Positions 50,999 through 59,271 of a DNA stretch of 64,000 nucleotides are shown in pieces; the first letter of the stretch is position 1, and each line of letters opens with the position of its first letter. This DNA comes from Escherichia coli (GTDB lineage: Bacteria; Pseudomonadota; Gammaproteobacteria; Enterobacterales; Enterobacteriaceae). The stretch lies in assembly GCF_050920415.1 (NCBI RefSeq), contig NZ_CP169309.1. One strand, written 5' to 3'. A program made the translations under genes and the position numbers. Under the pieces are notes generated by a model. The model made no database searches and had not been told where the DNA came from. It saw only the letters and a program-made list of their open reading frames with translations.

Positions 50999-52096
50999 AT
51001 GAAAAAATTAACAGTGGCAATTTCTGCTGTAGCTGCATCAGTACTGATGGCGATGTCTGCTCAGGCAGCTGAAATTTATAATAAAGACAGTAACAAGCTG
51101 GATCTGTACGGGAAAGTTAATGCTAAGCACTACTTCTCCTCTAATGATGCAGATGATGGTGATACTACTTATGCCCGTCTTGGCTTCAAAGGTGAAACCC
51201 AAATCAACGATCAGCTGACTGGTTTCGGTCAGTGGGAATATGAATTCAAAGGCAACCGCGCTGAATCTCAAGGTTCCTCCAAAGACAAAACCCGTCTTGC
51301 ATTTGCAGGCCTGAAATTCGGTGACTACGGCTCAATCGATTACGGCCGTAACTACGGTGTAGCATACGACATCGGTGCGTGGACTGACGTTCTGCCAGAA
51401 TTCGGTGGCGATACCTGGACCCAAACAGATGTGTTCATGACTGGTCGTACCACTGGTGTTGCAACCTATCGTAACAACGACTTCTTTGGTCTGGTTGATG
51501 GTCTGAACTTTGCTGCTCAGTACCAAGGCAAAAACGATCGTAGCGATTTCGATAACTACACTGAAGGTAACGGTGATGGCTTCGGTTTCTCTGCTACCTA
51601 TGAATACGAAGGATTCGGTATCGGTGCAACTTATGCGAAATCTGATCGTACCGACACTCAAGTTAATGCAGGGAAAGTTCTTCCTGAAGTATTTGCTTCC
51701 GGTAAAAATGCAGAAGTTTGGGCCGCAGGTCTGAAATATGACGCTAACAACATTTACCTGGCCACTACCTATTCTGAAACCCAGAATATGACTGTATTTG
51801 CTGATCACTTCGTTGCTAATAAAGCTCAAAACTTCGAAGCTGTTGCACAATATCAGTTCGATTTCGGTCTGCGTCCGTCCGTTGCTTACCTGCAATCTAA
51901 AGGTAAGGATCTTGGAGTATGGGGCGATCAGGACTTAGTCAAATATGTTGATGTAGGTGCAACCTATTACTTCAACAAAAATATGTCTACTTTCGTTGAT
52001 TACAAAATCAACCTGCTTGACAAAAATGACTTCACTAAAGCACTCGGTGTAAGCACTGATGACATCGTTGCTGTAGGTCTGGTTTACCAGTTCTAA
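50999..52096 (+). CDS. nmpC: Prophage-encoded general porin NmpC (OmpC/OmpF family)
   Basis: 365-aa ORF with signal peptide, porin beta-barrel signature and C-terminal Phe (VGLVYQF); between Q and the holin as in DLP12. Confidence 0.92.
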
Positions 52097-52234
52097 TCTG
52101 ATTACGAAAAAGATATGTTGCGGGAGGCTTTGCCTCCCCAACATATAAGTGGCTCCCTCAAGCCACTTCCTTTAGGAGCACAACCTTGCTTCTAACTATA
52201 TAAACCTTCTGTTATATATTACCCTTTATTTTTG

Positions 52235-52258
52235 GGGGCGTTGCAACGCCCCATTTTT
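52235..52258 (+). terminator. Intrinsic terminator downstream of nmpC
   Basis: Perfect palindrome GGGGCGTTGCAACGCCCC followed by ATTTTT. Confidence 0.6.
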
Positions 52259-52285
52259 AATAACTTTTAGTAAACAACTGGCATA

Positions 52286-52669
52286 TTAATTAGAGTTATT
52301 AACAACGATATCCATCTCTAACCGGATATCTAATGCCATTAACATCCCTTCAATTATACCCTCAGCCTTCTGTAACCTTTTCCCGATATAACCATCAGAG
52401 CAGCAATGCTTACCTGCCAGTGACATGAATGTCATACCGACTACATAATAATCTACTAATAAATCGTGCAAATCGCTGTTGTTCTTTTTCAGACGGGCCA
52501 TGCACCCGCAAATGATCATCGCGTCATCGTCACAACATTGCGGGCGAGATTTTACTTTTGAAGTAATTAATCCCTTAAAACCGGCGGCAATGGACGACCA
52601 GGTCACATCTTCATGATTATTAGCCGCCCACGCTCCCCAACGCTCAAGAACCATCTGAATATCACGCAT
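52286..52669 (-). CDS. Q: Late-gene antiterminator Q (quuD / phage 82 type)
   Basis: Matches DLP12 QuuD from [26 protein letters not shown]...; 127 aa (ORF-track frame starts 5 codons earlier). Confidence 0.9.
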
Positions 52670-52754
52670 CAACTTACTCCACAAAAATCAGACCAGAACG
52701 CCAATTACAAGCAAAAATCAACAAAATAGTATTAGTTGATTGTTATCTCTGACT

Positions 52755-52895
52755 TCATACTCCTGCTCCTGTCAGGGTTTTGGCGTAATTCTTCAGTATC
52801 CGGTAATCGGTCAAAACAGAACCAGGAAAACGATATAAGCGCAGGCGCACCCAGCGGCGGCGAAGACGCTCTGCCATATAAGACTCAAACATCAT
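52755..52895 (-). CDS. ylcG: Small protein YlcG (46 aa)
   Basis: Hand-translated: [49 protein letters not shown] overlaps the rusA stop (ATGA). Confidence 0.75.
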
Positions 52896-53254
52896 TCATT
52901 CCCCATTTCGGTGATGGTCAGTTCCAGCCTCCCACCTTTGGTAACAGGCATCTTCACAACGCGGTAATCAACGACCTGAGCATCATCCAGCCAGAAACCT
53001 GCTTTGGTGAGTGCGTCAAAAGCGGCCTTTTGCAGATTATCCAGGTCACGGCGACGGCGATCCGGCATGTGGCACTCAATACGGATTTTCACTGGCATAG
53101 CCAGGCCGATATCCAGCATTGCGTTTTTAATGATTCGGGTGACGTTATCGCGGTATGCCTGCCCTTCTGCGCTGATGTGTGTGCGCCCGCGATTATGGCG
53201 GTAATAGCGGTTATTGCTCGGAGGCCAGGGTAGTGTGATGTGGTAAGTATTCAC
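52892..53254 (-). CDS. rusA: Holliday junction resolvase RusA
   Basis: Matches RusA from the GTG start (.[25 protein letters not shown]...); 120 aa. Confidence 0.9.
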
Positions 53255-53541
53255 GCCTTGATTACCCCCTCTTTCAGCCAGATAACCTGCGTTCTCGCCA
53301 TACCTTCCAGCGCGCATTCTTTTGCGTACTCAGCATCGACAAAATGCGTGCGGCGGTCGATTTCGTCGTGACAGGCAGAACAGGCAATGGTGGCAATAAG
53401 GTCTGGCGGTTTAATACCGGTGCCGCACAATCCAGCCAGCCGGATATGTGCCAGTACAGACGTTTCAGGGTTGCCATTACATACGCCAGTGATTCTTACC
53501 TGGCATTCCCGACCACGCGCTGCTTTTCTCAAATCAGCCAT
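53251..53541 (-). CDS. ybcO: YbcO (DUF1364, putative nuclease)
   Basis: Matches YbcO from [17 protein letters not shown]...; 96 aa; Cys-rich. Confidence 0.85.
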
Positions 53542-53704
53542 GATTCCTCCTTGCTGCCAGTCGCAACCATTTTTTATCAACCAGGCTAGCGGTATATCCG
53601 AGCAGTGTTGGTATTTCGGATGGCTTCAGCTCAGGCTTACGCTTACGACGATTTGGTACTCTGTAGATGTGTCCGTTCATGACACGAATAAGCGGTGTAG
53701 CCAT
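53534..53704 (-). CDS. ninE: NinE
   Basis: Hand-translated 56-aa [59 protein letters not shown]; overlaps ybcN stop and ybcO start. Confidence 0.85.
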   Translation of the reverse strand: MATPLIRVMNGHIYRVPNRRKRKPELKPSEIPTLLGYTASLVDKKWLRLAARRNHG

Positions 53705-54159
53705 TACGCCTCCTGCTTGTCGCGCAGCAGCTGGAACTCGCAGCTCTGCGGAATAGTCAGGTGGCAGCCAATATTCATCGCCCAGGCTTCAACCTTACAC
53801 AGGAAGACATACATCTCTCCGGTATCAAGATCGGAAGTATGGCGTAACGACTGGATAGTAGTGATTTCGCCGGTTACGACATCAACCAGGTCCTTGGTTT
53901 CATAACCGAGGTATGTGTGTTTGAGAGCATCTTTTACCCAAGCTGGAGTGGCGAACGTTTTACCCCTGCTGATGAGGTATTCACTGATTTCGCTGTACCA
54001 CATGTGGCTGAGTGCATTCTGGGAAAGACTGCGTTTCTCACGCCACGGTTTAAGCACCATGCGAAAGCATTTGCCTTCCTCCAGATAAGGCTGGATCTGC
54101 TGGCCGATAGCGGTGAAGTTACCACGATGCAATTTGATGCCGTCTTGTGGGAGGTTCAC
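53704..54159 (-). CDS. ybcN: YbcN (NinB-position protein)
   Basis: 151-aa ORF with GTG start, matching DLP12 YbcN length and position. Confidence 0.85.
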
Positions 54160-54189
54160 GCTTCACCTCCGCAGAGGTCAAACGCTGGA

Positions 54190-54277
54190 TGCAAAAAATC
54201 GCAGGTGCATCTCTGCATCTGTGAAGGGAGAAGAGAGTTTGGATTGTATGTGCGCATAAACGTCCCCGTTTAGCGCA
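54190..54277. repeat. 88-bp direct repeat, copy 1 (upstream of ybcN)
   Basis: About 93% identical to 56124-56211; contains hairpin GCGCATAAACG-TCCCC-GTTTAGCGC. Confidence 0.85.
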
Positions 54278-54353
54278 GAAGTCACCGGAGTTGTTCAAGC
54301 TCCAATGGCATGATTATGGCTGGTTGATTATTGGAAATCAAATGTGCTGAAAA

Positions 54354-54863
54354 TTAGTCTGCCAAGTCTTCCTCAGTCGCAACTGGGTAATTCCAAATAT
54401 CAAAAAAAGCTATAGCCTCCTGCCATTTGCTCCATAAGTTATCAAGTACTTGTGTAGGTTCCGTACTTTTAAAAACAGAATCAGCCGCATCACCGTTATG
54501 AACTTCCTCGTACAGTTCCATTATTAGCAGATTAACAAAGTACTGTTTCAACATTAATGCCTGATTACCTTCTTTCTGCTGGCTATCCTGCTTGATGAGC
54601 TCCATCGCCCGTACTAGGCACCTGATGATATCCGCTGCATCATTAACGCTCCATTCAGATCCGCGCTTATCTTTAGCTGATGAATTGGCTCTCTCAGCGC
54701 AAGCCTTTAAAGACTCATAAAGGTAAACTCTATTTTGTAGCTGCAGCGCTTTTTTTGACGTGCACCAACTTGCAAGCGCCGACCCCGCTGCGGCTAATGT
54801 GCCAAACGCAGAAATGCCTGCTGCTATTGCACTTAAGTCGGCACTGTCAAAGTTCCACATCAT
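54354..54863 (-). CDS. Hypothetical 169-aa protein with hydrophobic N-terminal segment
   Basis: Low-GC ORF; N-terminal hydrophobic stretch LSAIAAGISAFGTLAAAGSALASW; no recognised domain. Confidence 0.5.
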   Translation of the reverse strand: MMWNFDSADLSAIAAGISAFGTLAAAGSALASWCTSKKALQLQNRVYLYESLKACAERANSSAKDKRGSEWSVNDAADIIRCLVRAMELIKQDSQQKEGNQALMLKQYFVNLLIMELYEEVHNGDAADSVFKSTEPTQVLDNLWSKWQEAIAFFDIWNYPVATEEDLAD

Positions 54864-55098
54864 CGTTACACCTTATATAAACACCCCTCAGTAATATCCA
54901 ATAAGGTATGTGAACAATCAATATAATTTATATCCGTATCGGCACATAGCGATTTTAATGCTACTGATAATGGTATCTTTTAGATTATATCGTCCAGTTC
55001 CAGTACCCGTATTTTATGAAATGGACTCGCACATTACCAAAAAAAATGCCAGCACTTCCGTCATCGCAGAATGCTGGCAGTATTTCTAACTAGTGACT

Positions 55099-55707
55099 TT
55101 ATTGCAACAGATTCTGACGGAAATATGGTAACACACGACTCCACTTATCATCCTGCCACGGTTGGAATTTTACATGCGCCGTTTCTCTGGCAAGGATTTC
55201 TCGCGCCCTGTTGAGTATCCGAGGATATTCTTGTTCGATTGAAGTGAATCTACCTGCTTCGCGATGCTCTGCGACCTGAAGAAGGGGCGTAACGTTCTGG
55301 CAGGCGGTTAACATCGTATCACTTGCTCGCCATAACCAGGCGAGTGTGCAAAGTTCGTTATCAGTGAATTGTTTTGTGATTGGGGATTGTTGAACTTCTC
55401 GATCGAGAATATCCAGAACCCAGCGGCGGAATTCTTTGGCCACAGGAGTACGAGCAAACATGGCGATCAAATGGGCTCCGCGAAGGCTAAATACTCGAGA
55501 CTCCTGCATTCCACGAGGGGTGGTCACTTTGACCACCCTTGTCATCATATCTGTGAATTCATCTGAGTGCCGAGAGTAAATGCGCTGAACTGCTTTATCG
55601 TCCGCATATTCCAGTGCTAAACCAACTTCAGTGGCAGTAAGCCAAATTCTGTTATTGTGGCAAATCGGGGTAAACGTCGTTTTGTGGAATGCTAATTGAG
55701 TAGTCAT
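55099..55707 (-). CDS. Bro-N domain phage antirepressor-like protein
   Basis: 202-aa ORF; N-terminal region (HNNRIWLTATEVGLALEY...RVFSLRGAHLIAM) resembles Bro-N. Confidence 0.7.
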   Translation of the reverse strand: MTTQLAFHKTTFTPICHNNRIWLTATEVGLALEYADDKAVQRIYSRHSDEFTDMMTRVVKVTTPRGMQESRVFSLRGAHLIAMFARTPVAKEFRRWVLDILDREVQQSPITKQFTDNELCTLAWLWRASDTMLTACQNVTPLLQVAEHREAGRFTSIEQEYPRILNRAREILARETAHVKFQPWQDDKWSRVLPYFRQNLLQ

Positions 55708-56123
55708 AGTATCACCTCATCAGGTTAACCATCACCACCAACGACGCCAATCGACTGGTGGTGAACTGTGTAAGGTTGGCGTAACCGGCTACTCAAACCC
55801 GGCGCTTCCGAAGAAGCCCTCACACAGCCCACCATAATTTGGGCATAGCCGTGCTTAGCGCACAAAAAAACCGCTTAACGCGGTATGCGTTGAGTAGTAT
55901 CCCGGGACGCCAATCCCGTGTGCCGATTTTGCGGCAACGCACAGAATATAGCGCCGGATAAATCATGTCGTCAACCCCAGTAAATGGACACCATGATGAT
56001 CACAGCCATAGCTGCTACAACAGTTACAACTACCTCAGGCCAAAACATAACGATTTCCATATCACCTTTAGCCGCCAGACGAATAGAGACTCCCAATTCT
56101 GGCTGTCGAAGTAAAACACCGAA

Positions 56124-56211
56124 TGTAAAAAATCGTAGGTGCATTTCTGCATCTGTGAATGGAGATGAGAGTTTGGATTGTGTGTGCGCATAAACGTCCC
56201 CGTTTAGCGCA
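56124..56211. repeat. 88-bp direct repeat, copy 2 (upstream of the Bro-N module)
   Basis: Near-identical to 54190-54277 with 6 mismatches. Confidence 0.85.
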
Positions 56212-56519
56212 ACCCCACCACCGGGTGTTCAGGCCGACAGTAACTATATTATTCCCTACTGATTTTTGAAAATCAAAGGTCTTTATACGTCACACGAGAG
56301 CAAATATTTCCGAAGAAGAAACCTTTCGCCTTGAAAGGATAAAGAGTTCATTTCATAAATTGAAATATTCAATAAGAATATTGCAAAAAATGAAATTATT
56401 TACTAGCGAGTCTATCTAACTGATAATTATGAAGATTGTAAGCGGTAGCAATCACCCGCATACACATTGAACAGGATTTAATACAAAACGTCTTAAATTG
56501 TCCGTAAGGAATAGCACGA

Positions 56520-58022
56520 ATGACTCAAACTCCTCTATTACTTGCAATCATATTTTTATTGGTTGTTCTTGTTCTTTATATAGCTGCAATCAAACGCATC
56601 AAAAAAATACAATTAGAATTAAGTGATAGCAATCAAAAAAATGAAGAATACAAATCTCGCTTTGCAGATTATTTTAATGTAGAAGAAGAATGTAAGAAGC
56701 TTATTGAGAAAACAGAGCAAGAATGCTCCATAATAAAAGAAGAATCCCTAAAAGTAAAAGAAAATGCCAATAATGAACTAACAAACACCATTGAAAAAAT
56801 GGATGGTATCAATAAACAAATCCAAGAGCTAAGAAGAACTTATAAAGAGAAGAAAGAAATATATGATAAACTAGTAAGGCAAATTTCTATTTATTCAGAA
56901 GATGTTGAGCTAGCCGAACTAGGATTTTACGAACCTCATTTTAATTTTGAAGATTCAGAGCAATTTAAAAACAAAATAAAATCCATCAGGGATGAACAGA
57001 AATTAATGCTGCGGGATAAAACCCACTCTGGCGCAGTATATTGTACAACCCAATGGACTGTTGAAGGCTCTCGAGCAGAGGGTAAAAAAATGACAGACAG
57101 AAATATCAGGCTAACTACTAGAGCATTTAATAATGAATGTGATGCTGCAATTAGCAATTGCACGTGGAAAAACATCACTAAAATGGAAGAACGCATCACA
57201 AAGGCATTTGAGGCCATAAATAAACTAAACGAGCAAAATCACATATATATAAACACTAAATACCTCAATAAAAAACTTGAGGAATTGTGGCTTACCCATG
57301 AATATCGTGAGCAAAAACAGAAAGAAAAAGAAGAACAGGCAGAAATAAGGGCACAAATGAGAGAGGAGGAGCGTGCACAACGAGAAATAGAAAAGGCCAT
57401 GCAAGACGCAGAGGCAGAAGAGCGCCGTTATAAAAAAGCAATTGAAGCTGCAAGAAAGGAAATGGAAAAAGTTACTGGTGACATGAAGCAGCGCCTCGAA
57501 AATCGCATTGCCGAACTAGAACAGAGTTTGTCGCAGGCTGAATCAAAGCATCAAAGAGCATTATCCATGGCACAACAAACCAAACAAGGTCATGTTTATA
57601 TTATTTCGAACATAGGTTCTTTTGGGGAGAATGTTTATAAAATAGGCATGACACGACGTCTTGATCCGCAAGACCGTGTAAATGAGCTCGGTGATGCATC
57701 TGTTCCTTTTATTTTTGATGTACATGCCATGATTTATTCGGAGGACGCTCCATCATTAGAAAAAAAACTACATGATGTCTTCGATAAAAAGAGAGTCAAT
57801 CTTGTAAATCGTAGAAAAGAGTTTTTCTATGTTACTCTGGATGAGATCAAAGAAGCTGTTAAAAAACACTCTGATTCAGAAATTGAATTTATTGAGACAG
57901 CAGTCGCAAAAGACTTTAATGAGTCATTGGCTATTCGTAATCATGAAAATAAAAAAAGTGACAACAGCAACTCATCAATTATACCTGAGCGAAAAACCCC
58001 AGAGTTTGCAGATGCAATTTAA
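56520..58022 (+). CDS. Membrane-anchored coiled-coil protein with C-terminal T5orf172 (GIY-YIG-like) domain; DUF4041-like architecture
   Basis: 500-aa ORF, AAGGA 8 nt before the ATG; N-terminal TM helix (LLLAIIFLLVVLVLYIAAI), long K/E/Q-rich coiled-coil, C-terminal block VYIISNIGSFGENVYKIGMTRRLDPQDRVNELGDASVPF...LEKKLHDVFDKKRVN. Opposite strand to all neighbours. Confidence 0.7.
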   Translation: MTQTPLLLAIIFLLVVLVLYIAAIKRIKKIQLELSDSNQKNEEYKSRFADYFNVEEECKKLIEKTEQECSIIKEESLKVKENANNELTNTIEKMDGINKQIQELRRTYKEKKEIYDKLVRQISIYSEDVELAELGFYEPHFNFEDSEQFKNKIKSIRDEQKLMLRDKTHSGAVYCTTQWTVEGSRAEGKKMTDRNIRLTTRAFNNECDAAISNCTWKNITKMEERITKAFEAINKLNEQNHIYINTKYLNKKLEELWLTHEYREQKQKEKEEQAEIRAQMREEERAQREIEKAMQDAEAEERRYKKAIEAARKEMEKVTGDMKQRLENRIAELEQSLSQAESKHQRALSMAQQTKQGHVYIISNIGSFGENVYKIGMTRRLDPQDRVNELGDASVPFIFDVHAMIYSEDAPSLEKKLHDVFDKKRVNLVNRRKEFFYVTLDEIKEAVKKHSDSEIEFIETAVAKDFNESLAIRNHENKKSDNSNSSIIPERKTPEFADAI

Positions 58023-58270
58023 TTAATTTGTAGTAGCAATAAAGCAGGCATCGTTGAGAATATTTTGTCAGCGATGCTTACTTCTCTAACAAAAACGGTG
58101 ATTACCAACGAACTAACGGACTTCAGGTAATCATAAGACAAATGGAACGACTCTCCGGTGATTAGATCCCTGCAATAACAGTAATTTTCTACTAACTGAA
58201 AAATCTTTAACTGCCGCTCCTATTTCTAAGCTGACTGCTAGATTACATGGTGTGTTACCGATGAAAACCG

Positions 58271-58573
58271 TCACAGCAAGTTTAAGTTCATATCTCCATA
58301 CACTGCCAACACTCGTTTCATCGCGGCACTCTGGCGACACTCCTTGAAAATCAGATTCGTGCTCACCTTTCCTTCCCGTTCTTCCCTGGTAGCGAACCGG
58401 TAATACACCGTTCGCCAGACCTTACCATCAACGACCAAGATTCCTGCCCGTGCCATTTTAGCCGCAGCCTGATTTATACTGGTTACTGTTGCGCCTGTTA
58501 CCGCAGCAACGTCCTGCGCACAGAAGCTCTTATGCGTCCCCAGGTAATGAATAATTGCCTCTTTGCCCGTCAT
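58271..58573 (-). CDS. ren: Ren
   Basis: 100-aa ORF matching lambda Ren (MTGKEAIIHYLGTH.SFCA.DVAA.TGATVTSINQAAAKMARAG...). Confidence 0.9.
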   Translation of the reverse strand: MTGKEAIIHYLGTHKSFCAQDVAAVTGATVTSINQAAAKMARAGILVVDGKVWRTVYYRFATREEREGKVSTNLIFKECRQSAAMKRVLAVYGDMNLNLL

Positions 58574-59271
58574 ACAGTTGCTCCTTTCAGTCCGAACTTC
58601 GCTTTGATTTCTGCGATCTTCGCCAGAGCCTGTGCACGATTTAGAGGTCTACCGCCCATGACAGGAAGTTGTTTTACTGGTTCAGGTATCGCCTCACCAC
58701 GGTTAATTCGCGCGGTCATACAAGTCAGTTCATCGGCAGCCTTGCGCCGTAATTCCGCATCAGTAAGCGCATTGGCCCGCATGTTCTGATACAGGTTGGT
58801 AACCAGCCAGTAGTGCGCGTTTGATTTCCACGGATAAGACTCTGCATCTGGATACAGGCCACGTTTCCGGCAATACTCGTAAACCATATCAACCAGCTCG
58901 CTGGCGTTTGGCAGCCCGGCGGTAACGGATGCTTCTTCCCGGCACCAGGCAACAAACTGCCCGGGTGATGGCAGGAATGGTCGATTCTGCCGACGGGCTA
59001 CGCGCATTCCTGCGTCAACCTGTTCCATCGTGGTGATCCCGTTTTCCCGGAAAGCCAGAACCCACTGGCGGCGGATTTCGTTCAGTTCGTTCTGGTCCCG
59101 GTTAGCCAGGCTCGCCGGGAAAGTTGCCAGTAACTGGCTGAACACACCATTGATGATCTGCGCTACCTGTTGTACCTGCGGCTTTTCGTCGTACTGTTCC
59201 GGCATGTTGTTGGCGATCCGGCGCATCTGCTCACGGTCAAAGTTAACCATCTGTGCGGCGATGTTTTTCAT
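58570..59271 (-). CDS. P: Replication protein P (helicase loader)
   Basis: 233-aa ORF near-identical to lambda P (MKNIAAQMVNFDREQMRRIANNMPEQYDEKPQVQQ...). Confidence 0.96.
   Translation of the reverse strand: MKNIAAQMVNFDREQMRRIANNMPEQYDEKPQVQQVAQIINGVFSQLLATFPASLANRDQNELNEIRRQWVLAFRENGITTMEQVDAGMRVARRQNRPFLPSPGQFVAWCREEASVTAGLPNASELVDMVYEYCRKRGLYPDAESYPWKSNAHYWLVTNLYQNMRANALTDAELRRKAADELTCMTARINRGEAIPEPVKQLPVMGGRPLNRAQALAKIAEIKAKFGLKGATV

What the first reader, a model, noticed from the sequence alone, without database searches (positions are those of the whole stretch)
54354..55707. Low-GC 169-aa protein with hydrophobic N-terminus paired with a Bro-N antirepressor: possible second accessory or defence module
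The 169-aa ORF has no domain I recognise, a hydrophobic N-terminal segment and AT-rich codon usage, and lies directly downstream of a Bro-N-type gene inside the repeat-bracketed insert. Bro-N/KilA-N modules often carry variable effector genes next to them.
Basis: inference. Interest (0 to 1): 0.5.

Follow-up and report, generated by a model that had tools for sequence, protein, structure and literature searches.

The report
Prophage cargo slot: orphan membrane protein
A small, membrane-anchored protein of unknown function sits in a swappable cargo slot of a lambda-like E. coli prophage, just after an RNA-controlled antirepressor gene; sibling prophages carry proven anti-phage genes (BstA, HepS) at this exact spot, so it is a reasonable but untested phage-exclusion candidate, not a two-gene system with the antirepressor.

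Summary
A 169-aa ORF (54354-54863, minus strand) has no known domain, a hydrophobic N-terminus and moderately low GC. It lies 235 nt downstream of a Bro-N/P22_AR_C gene (55099-55707), inside a unit bracketed by a 104-nt direct repeat.

The two genes are separate units.
- **Antirepressor operon.** The Bro gene has its own leader with isrK and C4 antisense RNAs, a promoter-like site and a strong terminator. This is the Gifsy-1 isrK-anrP / P1 c4-ant layout.
- **Cargo cassette.** The 169-aa gene sits in a cassette of about 750 bp whose homology breakpoints fall at the ORF stop and the Bro stop. Sibling E. coli prophages carry BstA, a HepS homologue, a HEPN pair or other genes at the same breakpoints. 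SNIPE (PD-lambda-1) lies just upstream in this window.
- **The family.** It is small (34 clusters at 50% identity among 1.84 billion proteins) and confined to temperate phages and integrative elements. It is under purifying selection and always has a probable N-out/C-in membrane anchor, an all-helical cytoplasmic domain and usually an acidic DEDLxD C-terminus. No fold or profile match was found.
- **The pairing.** Every copy of 79% identity or less lacks a Bro neighbour, so the pairing is one recent cassette lineage.

Best reading: a stand-alone membrane-tethered accessory protein, probably superinfection exclusion or defence. This rests on position only and is untested.

The parts
54354..54863 (-). 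169-aa (probably 168-aa) ORF of family phrog_1779 (RefSeq WP_000990010.1). Predicted N-out/C-in single-pass inner-membrane protein with an all-helical cytoplasmic domain and an acidic C-terminal tail (TEEDLAD).
54346..55095 (-). Exchangeable cargo cassette of about 750 bp at 42% GC: the ORF plus its 235-nt AT-rich upstream spacer. Homology to prophages with other cargo stops at 54342-54354 on the ninB side and resumes at 55067-55117 on the Bro side.
   Evidence: Blastn breakpoints against L003-L007 and L019-L023; composition
55039..55079 (-). Intrinsic terminator just after the Bro stop codon: a hairpin of about 13 bp followed by U8. It separates the antirepressor operon from the 169-aa gene.
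   Evidence: RNA fold -22.3 kcal/mol, z = -3.05; sequence
55011..55040 (-). Weak promoter-like site (TTGGTA-18-TAAAAT, 9 of 12) upstream of the 169-aa ORF. This is a consensus match only, and no equivalent was found upstream of distant family members.
   Evidence: negative scans
55099..55707 (-). Bro-N + P22_AR_C protein of 202 aa (WP_000211451.1): an antirepressor-type gene, AnrP/Ant-like.
   Evidence: Pfam; PHROG anti-repressor families; RefSeq name
55754..55839 (-). C4-type antisense RNA in the leader of the Bro gene.
   Evidence: Rfam RF01695, 74.8 bits against a gathering score of 45, full model; conserved upstream of full-length Bro in L003, L004 and L019
55864..55951 (-). isrK sRNA (55864-55936, with its own terminator at 55870-55884) overlapping the a1/b1 target sites of C4 (55899-55951).
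   Evidence: Rfam RF01394, 58.7 bits against 50; RF03163, 39.6 bits, E 1.8e-8, below its gathering score; terminator scan
55945..55974 (-). Best promoter-like site in the region (TTGACG-18-TATATT, 10 of 12). It ends 9 nt before the 5' end of isrK and is the probable promoter of the isrK-C4-antirepressor operon.
   Evidence: together with the isrK coordinates (inference)
54174..54277 (.). Direct repeat copy 1: the ninB leader. It contains the 5' part of a 33-codon ORF (54156-54257, minus strand) whose stop overlaps the ninB GTG start, plus a terminator-like hairpin at 54200-54217.
   Evidence: annotated as a 102-nt hypothetical gene in RefSeq and as orf33 in phage 82
56108..56211 (.). Direct repeat copy 2 (89% identical), at the upstream edge of the unit made of antirepressor operon plus cargo. 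Prophages lacking the unit, such as K-12 DLP12, join the two flanks within about 156 nt.

Best explanation
The finding contains two independent units.

(A) A self-contained antirepressor operon: promoter, isrK sRNA, C4-type antisense RNA, Bro-N/P22_AR_C gene, terminator. This is the layout described for Gifsy-1 isrK-orf45-anrP and P1 c4-icd-ant, in which the leader RNAs control translation of the antirepressor.

(B) Immediately downstream, a cassette of about 750 bp in a cargo slot bounded by the antirepressor stop and the ninB leader. It encodes a stand-alone accessory protein. The protein has a short acidic N-tail outside the cell, one Ala/Gly/Ser-rich transmembrane helix, a rigidly connected all-helical cytoplasmic domain without catalytic-type conserved residues, and a conserved acidic C-terminus (DEDLxD).

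Most likely mechanism (inferred, not shown): the protein is tethered to the cytoplasmic face of the inner membrane and works by protein-protein binding. There it interferes with a superinfecting phage, either by blocking entry or early events (superinfection exclusion) or by sensing them (defence). It does this independently of the Bro protein.

What is shown: the gene is real and under purifying selection, the cassette is exchangeable, its slot-mates are validated defence genes, and Bro is not a conserved partner. The membrane topology is predicted from sequence only. The anti-phage function is inferred from position only.
For: Unit A:
- Rfam C4 at 74.8 bits and isrK at 58.7 bits, both above their gathering scores.
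- A promoter-like site ends 9 nt before isrK.
- A terminator follows the Bro stop codon.
- The same RNAs lie upstream of full-length Bro in L003, L004 and L019, whatever the cargo.
- The Gifsy-1 operon is described in PMC4825925.

Unit B, cassette:
- Homology breakpoints fall at 54342-54354 and 55067-55117.
- Alternative cargos at the same breakpoints are BstA (L005, L022), a HepS homologue (L019, L020), a HEPN/PDC-M28A protein plus a 133-aa protein, and a 118-aa unknown protein. An alpha/beta hydrolase also lies between the repeat flanks in prophages without the Bro gene, and some sites are empty.
- Frequencies in 5426 E. coli genomes are comparable: 180 (169-aa gene), 121 (BstA) and 190 (HEPN pair).
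- SNIPE is adjacent.

Stand-alone status:
- 36 of 37 copies of 96% identity or more lie after a P22_AR_C gene, in four different upstream configurations. In 14 of them only the P22_AR_C part remains, next to ybcK.
- 0 of 8 copies of 79% identity or less have such a neighbour.
- Distant members sit before ninB, in the leftward early (PL) operon, or in another integrative element, never beside Bro.

Protein:
- The hydrophobic segment and charge asymmetry are present in all 30 members.
- One member is fused to an N-terminal extension with about three extra hydrophobic segments.
- The AF2 model has pLDDT 82: helix 7-63 followed by a helical bundle.
- dN/dS is about 0.1.
Against: There is no experimental or homology evidence for any function.
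- No match in PADLOC, Pfam, NCBIfam or PDB.
- Hydrophobicity of this allele's N-terminal segment is borderline (1.59), and topology is predicted only.
- No convincing promoter of its own: one 9/12 site here and none upstream of distant members.
- In every context the gene is co-directional with the early operon, and in PL-operon members it is tightly packed. That fits an early lytic gene as well as a lysogen-expressed one.
- 'Guilt by position' is weak evidence. The same slot also holds genes with no defence link (a DNA polymerase III theta homologue, an alpha/beta hydrolase).
Confidence: 0.45

Rival explanations
1. Early lytic-phase accessory factor. The protein is made from the N-antiterminated early transcript and manipulates a host inner-membrane component or neutralises a membrane-associated host defence (counter-defence or host takeover). 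It does not protect the lysogen.
For: The gene is co-directional with the early operon in every independent context examined. Members in the PL operon are separated from neighbours by only 50-115 nt, with no promoter-like sites. No consistent promoter was found upstream of nin-region members. Family members recur near early-left accessory genes such as DNA polymerase III theta homologues.
Against: Slot-mates at identical breakpoints are lysogen-protecting defence genes. A strong terminator precedes the gene. The ORF stays intact where the adjacent Bro gene is reduced to its P22_AR_C part next to ybcK, and in one case (L021) where ninB is also cut.
Confidence: 0.25
2. One reading: the Bro-N/P22_AR_C protein and the 169-aa protein form a two-gene module, with the regulator or sensor paired with a variable effector.
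For: In E. coli nearly all copies lie right after a P22_AR_C-containing gene (36 of 37), and 111 genomes carry the complete unit. Different 'effectors' follow the same antirepressor gene.
Against: A terminator lies between the genes. The Bro gene has its own RNA-controlled operon. The Bro-N half is missing in 14 of 37 close copies while the 169-aa ORF stays intact. No Bro/P22_AR_C neighbour is seen in any copy of 79% identity or less, or in more distant members. The slot-mates BstA and HepS act alone according to PMC8585504 and PMC13043305.
Confidence: 0.07
3. A lysogenic-conversion or fitness gene unrelated to phages (for example envelope stress or membrane physiology), or a selfish passenger with no benefit to host or phage.
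For: There is no functional evidence at all. The family is small and narrowly distributed: 14 clusters at 90% identity and 34 at 50% identity. Close alleles differ by 14 non-synonymous against 4 synonymous changes, which is near-neutral. Another gene nearby in the same prophage, the porin, is of the conversion kind.
Against: Long-term purifying selection (dN/dS about 0.1). The anchor, several motifs and the C-terminal tail are conserved down to 22-25% identity. The family is found only in phage and integrative-element accessory slots.
Confidence: 0.15

Closest known systems
P22 SieA (superinfection exclusion protein)
   Same: A small prophage-encoded inner-membrane protein (162-164 aa against 168-169 aa) that acts alone to block DNA injection, has a conserved cytoplasmic motif, and is encoded close to the mnt gene of the immI antirepressor region (PMC10883804).
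   Different: SieA has three predicted transmembrane helices and the motif FxRYPxEAxxFNK. This protein has one hydrophobic segment and no such motif, and the PHROG search returned only phrog_1779, an unnamed family. SieA is a functional analogy only, not a relative.
SNIPE / PD-lambda-1 (membrane-bound nuclease, encoded 1.7 kb upstream in this window)
   Same: Encoded in the same prophage region. It has the same predicted topology: an N-terminal anchor with the functional part in the cytoplasm (PMC13190303).
   Different: SNIPE is 500 aa with DUF4041 and a GIY-YIG nuclease domain, and is encoded on the opposite strand. The 169-aa protein has no nuclease or other known domain and no conserved catalytic-type residues.
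BstA and HepS (single-protein prophage abortive-infection systems)
   Same: They occupy exactly the same cassette slot, with the same breakpoints, in sibling E. coli prophages. They are single-gene systems that work without partners.
   Different: BstA (KilA-N-like domain) and HepS (HEPN domain) are not described as membrane-anchored. There is no sequence, profile or fold similarity: PADLOC is negative, hhalign against the HepS homologue gives probability 0.1%, and no Rx4-6H motif is conserved in the family.
Gifsy-1 isrK-orf45-anrP operon and P1 immI c4-icd-ant (applies to the Bro gene only)
   Same: isrK and C4 RNAs lie in the leader of an antirepressor-type gene, with a promoter just upstream of isrK and an isrK terminator allowing read-through (PMC4825925).
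   Different: No isrJ follows the gene (no Rfam hit at E<=1). A 46-codon ORF overlaps C4 but is out of frame in L004, so an orf45 equivalent is doubtful. Similarity to AnrP itself was not tested. The operon lies between ren and ninB rather than next to antQ.
DUF4760 (a label carried by a few AlphaFold DB relatives)
   Same: Foldseek finds Citrobacter and Pantoea relatives (22-38% identity) that UniProt labels 'DUF4760 domain-containing protein'.
   Different: None of 30 family members, the query included, matches any Pfam family at E<=0.001. DUF4760 has no known function in any case (one incidental mention in the paper library).

Membership tests
Bro-N / P22_AR_C antirepressor-type proteins (gene 55099-55707) | N-terminal Bro-N domain | tested here: met
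   Pfam PF02498, E 7.6e-10, residues 17-100
Bro-N / P22_AR_C antirepressor-type proteins (gene 55099-55707) | P22 antirepressor C-terminal domain | tested here: met
   Pfam PF10548, E 6.2e-17, residues 110-180; PHROG anti-repressor families
Bro-N / P22_AR_C antirepressor-type proteins (gene 55099-55707) | Binds and inactivates a prophage repressor | not testable with these tools
   Needs binding and induction assays
immI-type operon (P1 c4-ant / Gifsy-1 isrK-anrP) | C4-type antisense RNA and isrK RNA in the leader of the antirepressor gene | tested here: met
   Rfam C4 at 74.8 bits (gathering score 45) and isrK at 58.7 bits (gathering score 50); conserved in L003, L004 and L019
immI-type operon (P1 c4-ant / Gifsy-1 isrK-anrP) | Small upstream ORF (icd / orf45) translationally coupled to the antirepressor | tested here: inconclusive
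   A 46-codon ORF (55725-55865) exists, but its frame is broken in L004 and L006
immI-type operon (P1 c4-ant / Gifsy-1 isrK-anrP) | isrJ sRNA downstream of the antirepressor (Gifsy-1) | tested here: not met
   No isrJ match at E<=1 in 52000-59000
Two-gene Bro + effector system | The two genes stay together across divergent homologues | tested here: not met
   0 of 8 copies of 79% identity or less have a Bro/P22_AR_C neighbour; none in more distant contexts
Two-gene Bro + effector system | Co-transcription as one operon | tested here: inconclusive
   A strong intrinsic terminator (z = -3.05) lies between the genes. Read-through under N antitermination cannot be excluded.
Moron (autonomously expressed prophage insert) | Own promoter and terminator; base composition unlike the neighbours | tested here: inconclusive
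   Composition differs (42% against 50% GC) and an upstream terminator is present. The promoter is only a 9/12 consensus match and is absent in relatives.
Known anti-phage defence families (PADLOC 2.0, including BstA and PD-lambda-1) | Profile match of the 169-aa protein | tested here: not met
   0 families at E<=0.01
HEPN nucleases (HepS and the like) | Conserved Rx4-6H motif and HEPN fold | tested here: not met
   No conserved His or Arg pair in alignment A2; hhalign against the HepS homologue gives probability 0.1%; no HEPN protein stood out among the generic helical fold matches
P22 SieA family | Three transmembrane helices and the cytoplasmic motif FxRYPxEAxxFNK | tested here: not met
   One hydrophobic segment only; motif absent from the alignment; features taken from PMC10883804
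Single-pass inner-membrane protein, N-out/C-in | One hydrophobic helix of about 20 residues with positive charges on the C-terminal side, conserved across the family | tested here: met
   Kyte-Doolittle 1.5-2.5 in 30 of 30 members. The N-flank has no Lys/Arg in 26 of 30 members and the C-flank has 2-6. AF2 predicts a continuous helix 7-63. This is prediction only; localisation is not testable here.
Pfam DUF4760 | Match to the Pfam profile | tested here: not met
   No member of A2 matches it

The most novel reading that the evidence does not exclude
The phrog_1779 family is a previously unrecognised single-protein, membrane-anchored anti-phage (superinfection-exclusion or abortive) system. Its cytoplasmic helical domain and conserved acidic C-terminus (DEDLxD) would engage an incoming phage's ejection or tape-measure machinery, or a host inner-membrane entry factor. 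In addition, the 3' end of immI-type antirepressor operons in E. coli lambdoid prophages would serve as a fixed docking point where single-gene defence cassettes (BstA, HepS, a HEPN pair, this gene) are exchanged.
Probability: 0.3. Interest if true: 0.6.

Novelty: new member of a known kind. Interest (0 to 1): 0.4.

Why it matters
If the 169-aa protein excludes phages, it adds a new, very small, non-enzymatic-looking family to the set of single-gene prophage defences. It would also give a second membrane-tethered system in the same prophage as SNIPE, which is useful for asking how entry-stage defences are layered.

Independently of that, the comparison defines a precise cassette slot (antirepressor stop to ninB leader). 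It carries validated defence genes in hundreds of E. coli genomes: BstA in 121, a HEPN pair in 190, plus HepS homologues. This slot is a practical place to mine for further unknown systems, such as the 118-aa and 133-aa proteins seen here.

It also corrects the annotation of the 'Rha/Bro' gene, which is an isrK/C4-controlled antirepressor operon.

Tried and rejected
**Domain and family searches for the 169-aa protein**
- Pfam on the single sequence and on 30 members, NCBIfam and PADLOC: nothing.
- PHROGs: only phrog_1779, an unnamed family of unknown function.
- PDB by profile: nothing at E<=1.

**Structure**
- Two AF2 models (pLDDT 70.7, then 82.1 with the deeper alignment).
- Foldseek against AFDB50 found only the protein's own family. 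Foldseek against BFVD found nothing at E<=0.001.

**Relatedness to other cargos**
- Profile comparison with the 210-aa (HepS-like) and 118-aa slot-mates found no relationship.
- The 138-aa HEPN, 133-aa, 118-aa and Bro proteins have no PDB sequence relatives.

**Literature**
- The RefSeq accessions WP_000990010, WP_000211451 and WP_042815059 appear in no held paper, nor, with WP_032311209 added, in the DefensePredictor supplements.
- Brenes & Laub 2025 (Cell Host Microbe) is not in the library. From memory it may be the source of the PhiR phages. I therefore could not check whether this gene was already tested.
- DUF4760 has a single incidental mention.

**Expression signals**
- Promoter scans upstream of four distant family members found nothing consistent, so I do not claim an own promoter.

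**Other**
- The search for related loci with the wide alignment A2 failed for lack of a conserved stretch; A1 worked.
- I considered that the N-terminal segment is a cleavable signal peptide and rejected it. There is no positive n-region, the -1 position is not conserved as a small residue, and Lys/Arg follow directly.
- I considered the 46-codon ORF as an orf45 equivalent. It is not conserved in frame.
Full report
**1. What is there**

The window region 49.7-60.3 kb is the early-right (nin) region of a lambdoid prophage, read on the minus strand. In order it contains:
- O, P and ren;
- a 500-aa gene on the opposite strand;
- the Bro-type gene (55099-55707);
- the 169-aa ORF (54354-54863);
- ninB/ybcN, ninE, ybcO, rusA, ylcG and Q;
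- a porin gene on the plus strand;
- S, R and Rz.

The 2.2 kb around the finding is 100% identical to Escherichia phage PhiR26_1 (PV340555.1), a complete phage genome whose host is recorded as MG1655.

All elements of the observation check out. The low GC is modest: 44.5% for the ORF and 36.6% for its upstream spacer, against 50.1% for the window.

**2. The Bro gene is a self-contained, RNA-controlled antirepressor operon**

Rfam finds two RNAs on the coding strand in the 250 nt upstream of the Bro start. A C4 antisense RNA lies at 55754-55839 (74.8 bits, gathering score 45). An isrK sRNA lies at 55864-55936 (58.7 bits, gathering score 50) and overlaps a match to the a1/b1 targets of C4.

The best promoter-like site in the region (TTGACG-18-TATATT, 10 of 12) ends 9 nt before the 5' end of isrK, and the isrK terminator is at 55870-55884. 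Directly after the Bro stop codon there is a hairpin plus U8 (-22.3 kcal/mol, z = -3.05).

This is the layout described for Gifsy-1 isrK-orf45-anrP. There the isrK promoter drives an antirepressor-like gene whose translation depends on the short IsrK RNA (PMC4825925). From my own knowledge it also matches the P1 immI c4-icd-ant region.

The same two RNAs precede the full-length Bro gene in three other prophages with different downstream cargo. Other prophages at this position have an Arc-family gene just upstream of the P22_AR_C gene and a second, divergent one instead (L020). PhiR5_1 (L002) has a comparable layout, but its small upstream genes are unannotated. This resembles the P22 arc/mnt arrangement.

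A 46-codon ORF overlaps C4 but is out of frame in L004, so I do not call it an orf45 equivalent.

**3. The 169-aa gene sits in an exchangeable cassette**

I compared the window by blastn with nine related prophage regions. Homology coming from the ninB side stops at 54342-54354, which is the ORF stop codon. It resumes at 55067-55117, which is the Bro stop and terminator. The swapped unit is therefore about 750 bp: the ORF plus its 235-nt spacer.

At the same breakpoints other E. coli prophages carry:
- a full-length BstA (PADLOC 3.6e-121; L005, L022);
- a 66-aa gene, a DNA polymerase III theta homologue (frameshifted in L019) and a 210-aa protein that is a HepS homologue (PDB 9oij, E 6.9e-62, full length) in L019, and the same HepS homologue behind a 58-aa gene in L020;
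- a HEPN protein (PDC-M28A, E 1.8e-7) plus a 133-aa protein (L004, L006);
- a 118-aa unknown protein (L003, L023).

Elsewhere between the same repeat flanks, prophages without the Bro gene carry an alpha/beta hydrolase or nothing at all, as in K-12 DLP12.

BstA and HepS are experimentally validated single-protein abortive-infection systems (PMC8585504; PMC13043305). [quoted passage not shown]

The opposite-strand 500-aa gene in this window is PD-lambda-1 (PADLOC 1.9e-198), now characterised as SNIPE, a membrane-bound nuclease that cuts injected phage DNA (PMC13190303).

Frequencies among 5426 complete E. coli genomes:

| Element | Genomes |
|---|---|
| 169-aa cassette | 180 |
| BstA cassette | 121 |
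| HEPN-pair cassette | 190 |
| Bro/P22_AR_C-like gene | 838 |
| Repeat flanks | 2885 |

**4. The pairing with Bro is not conserved**

Of 45 IMG/VR loci with the gene, 37 carry a copy of 96% identity or more:
- 12 lie after the full Bro gene, with SNIPE upstream;
- 8 lie after the full Bro gene, with no SNIPE in the fetched flank;
- 14 lie after a lone P22_AR_C remnant next to the ybcK recombinase gene, with no Bro-N part;
- 2 lie after a P22_AR_C gene with a different Bro-N half (49% identity);
- 1 is a fragment without such a neighbour.

All 8 copies of 79% identity or less lack any Bro/P22_AR_C neighbour.

More distant members (63-22% identity) sit in three kinds of place:
- directly upstream of ninB or its DUF1367 counterpart, after DUF551-type or unknown genes (L008-L011, L060-L065, L069), or elsewhere in the nin region after a Dam-type methylase (L016);
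- in the leftward early (PL) operon, near the integrase or excisionase-type gene where the locus includes one (L014, L015, L071-L073);
- in another integrative element, next to a reverse transcriptase plus SLATT pair (L013).

The gene behaves as a stand-alone accessory gene. In E. coli the antirepressor's 3' end is simply the conserved flank of the slot.

**5. The protein**

The family is small: 14 clusters at 90% identity among 5.8 billion proteins and 34 representatives at 50% identity among 1.84 billion. Full-length members are about 153-182 aa, apart from one 288-aa fusion.

Features conserved down to 22-25% identity:
- a short acidic N-tail;
- an Ala/Gly/Ser-rich hydrophobic segment with an invariant Ser at its end;
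- basic residues right after that segment;
- the motifs A(E/D)RAN, W..(D/Q).ANI, YF..L, PD and W....FF;
- a C-terminal (T/D)DEDLxD in about 70% of members.

No His, Asp or Glu constellation typical of an enzyme is conserved.

The hydrophobic segment scores 1.5-2.5 (Kyte-Doolittle, 19 residues) in all 30 members. The charge bias predicts N-out/C-in topology. One member is fused to an N-terminal extension with about three further hydrophobic segments, which fits that orientation. AF2 with the 30-sequence alignment gives pLDDT 82: one continuous helix over residues 7-63, then a helical bundle.

No profile, sequence or fold search links the protein to anything characterised.

dN/dS is about 0.10-0.16 between divergent members. 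Among near-identical E. coli alleles there are 14 non-synonymous and 4 synonymous differences, which is roughly neutral and based on small numbers.

**6. Interpretation**

Shown:
- a real, selected, probably membrane-anchored protein;
- an exchangeable cassette;
- validated defence genes as its positional alternatives and as its neighbour;
- no conserved partnership with Bro.

Inferred:
- The protein acts at the cytoplasmic face of the inner membrane by binding rather than catalysis.
- Its target is a superinfecting phage, by exclusion or defence.

The main rival is an early lytic host-takeover or counter-defence role. Two things favour it: the gene's invariable co-orientation with the early operons, and the lack of a convincing promoter of its own. 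I put defence/exclusion at about 0.45, the early-lytic role at about 0.25, a phage-unrelated or neutral role at about 0.15, and a genuine Bro-effector pair at about 0.07.

**7. Novelty and score**

The antirepressor operon is a known type. The slot is a known kind of prophage accessory or defence hotspot. The 169-aa family is uncharacterised and would be a new member of the class of small prophage membrane proteins that act on incoming phages.

I could not check whether it was already tested, because the paper I believe describes the PhiR phages is not in the library. The finding is worth a simple phage-challenge experiment but is not surprising in kind. Interest: 0.4.

Noticed in passing
window 56520-58022 (+): The 500-aa gene on the opposite strand is PD-lambda-1 (PADLOC E 1.9e-198), now characterised as SNIPE, a membrane-bound GIY-YIG nuclease that cleaves phage DNA during injection. 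It is very AT-rich (35% GC, GC3 28%). Of the 20 IMG/VR copies of the cassette that lie after the full Bro gene, 12 also have SNIPE upstream.
   Followed up: partly
window 55754-55951 (-): C4 antisense RNA, isrK sRNA and the a1/b1 target sites form the leader of the Bro gene. GenBank annotates the Bro gene as 'Rha protein' and RefSeq as 'P22AR C-terminal domain-containing protein'; neither annotates the RNAs.
   Followed up: yes
L019 1224-1856 (-), L020 1533-2165 (-): E. coli prophages carry a full-length homologue of the Gifsy-1 abortive-infection nuclease HepS (PDB 9oij, E 6.9e-62) in the same slot. RefSeq annotates it only as 'hypothetical protein', and PADLOC 2.0 does not detect it.
   Followed up: partly
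L013 4756-5004; L071 4467-4709; L073 4028-4270; L019 1853-2102: A DNA polymerase III theta (HolE/Hot-like, PF06440) gene lies within one to three genes upstream of three distant members of the 169-aa family. In L013 its stop overlaps the family member's start. A theta gene also accompanies HepS in the E. coli slot. It is unclear whether this is synteny or a functional link.
   Followed up: no
window 55971-56144 (-): A small ORF ends in a very hydrophobic 29-residue peptide (MEIVMFWPEVVVTVVAAMAVIIMVSIYWG) between repeat copy 2 and the isrK promoter. It is conserved in L019 and L003 but interrupted by a stop in L004 and L006. It could be a small membrane peptide or toxin, or not coding at all.
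   Followed up: partly
window 54156-54257 (-) and 56030-56191 (-): The 104-nt repeat is the leader of ninB. It carries a 33-codon ORF whose TGA stop overlaps the ninB GTG start (likely translational coupling) and a terminator-like hairpin (54200-54217). Copy 2 carries the 5' part of the same ORF fused to other sequence. The leader is conserved upstream of ninB in other prophages (L008).
   Followed up: partly
window 50999-52096 (+): A 365-aa OmpC/OmpD/NmpC-type porin gene lies on the opposite strand between Q and the holin gene. It is preceded by a 29% GC spacer, a classic lysogenic-conversion insert.
   Followed up: no
L004 2708-3109 and 3088-3504 (-); L023 1665-2021 (-): Other uncharacterised cargos occupy the same slot: a HEPN protein (PDC-M28A-like) with an overlapping 133-aa partner, found in 190 E. 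coli genomes, and a 118-aa protein. Neither has a PDB or PADLOC assignment beyond the weak HEPN hit.
   Followed up: partly
window 54354-54863, close alleles in L002, L007, L021, L034-L056: Near-identical alleles differ by 14 distinct non-synonymous and only 4 synonymous changes (for example C34Y, L89I, S145N/G, A162V). Several alleles have ATA at codon 1, which points to the second ATG as the start.
   Followed up: partly
L013 1031-2931 (-); L063 1599-3929 (+): Distant family members lie beside a reverse transcriptase plus SLATT_5 gene pair (L013) and beside three unknown proteins of 213-282 aa (L063). Their roles are unknown.
   Followed up: no
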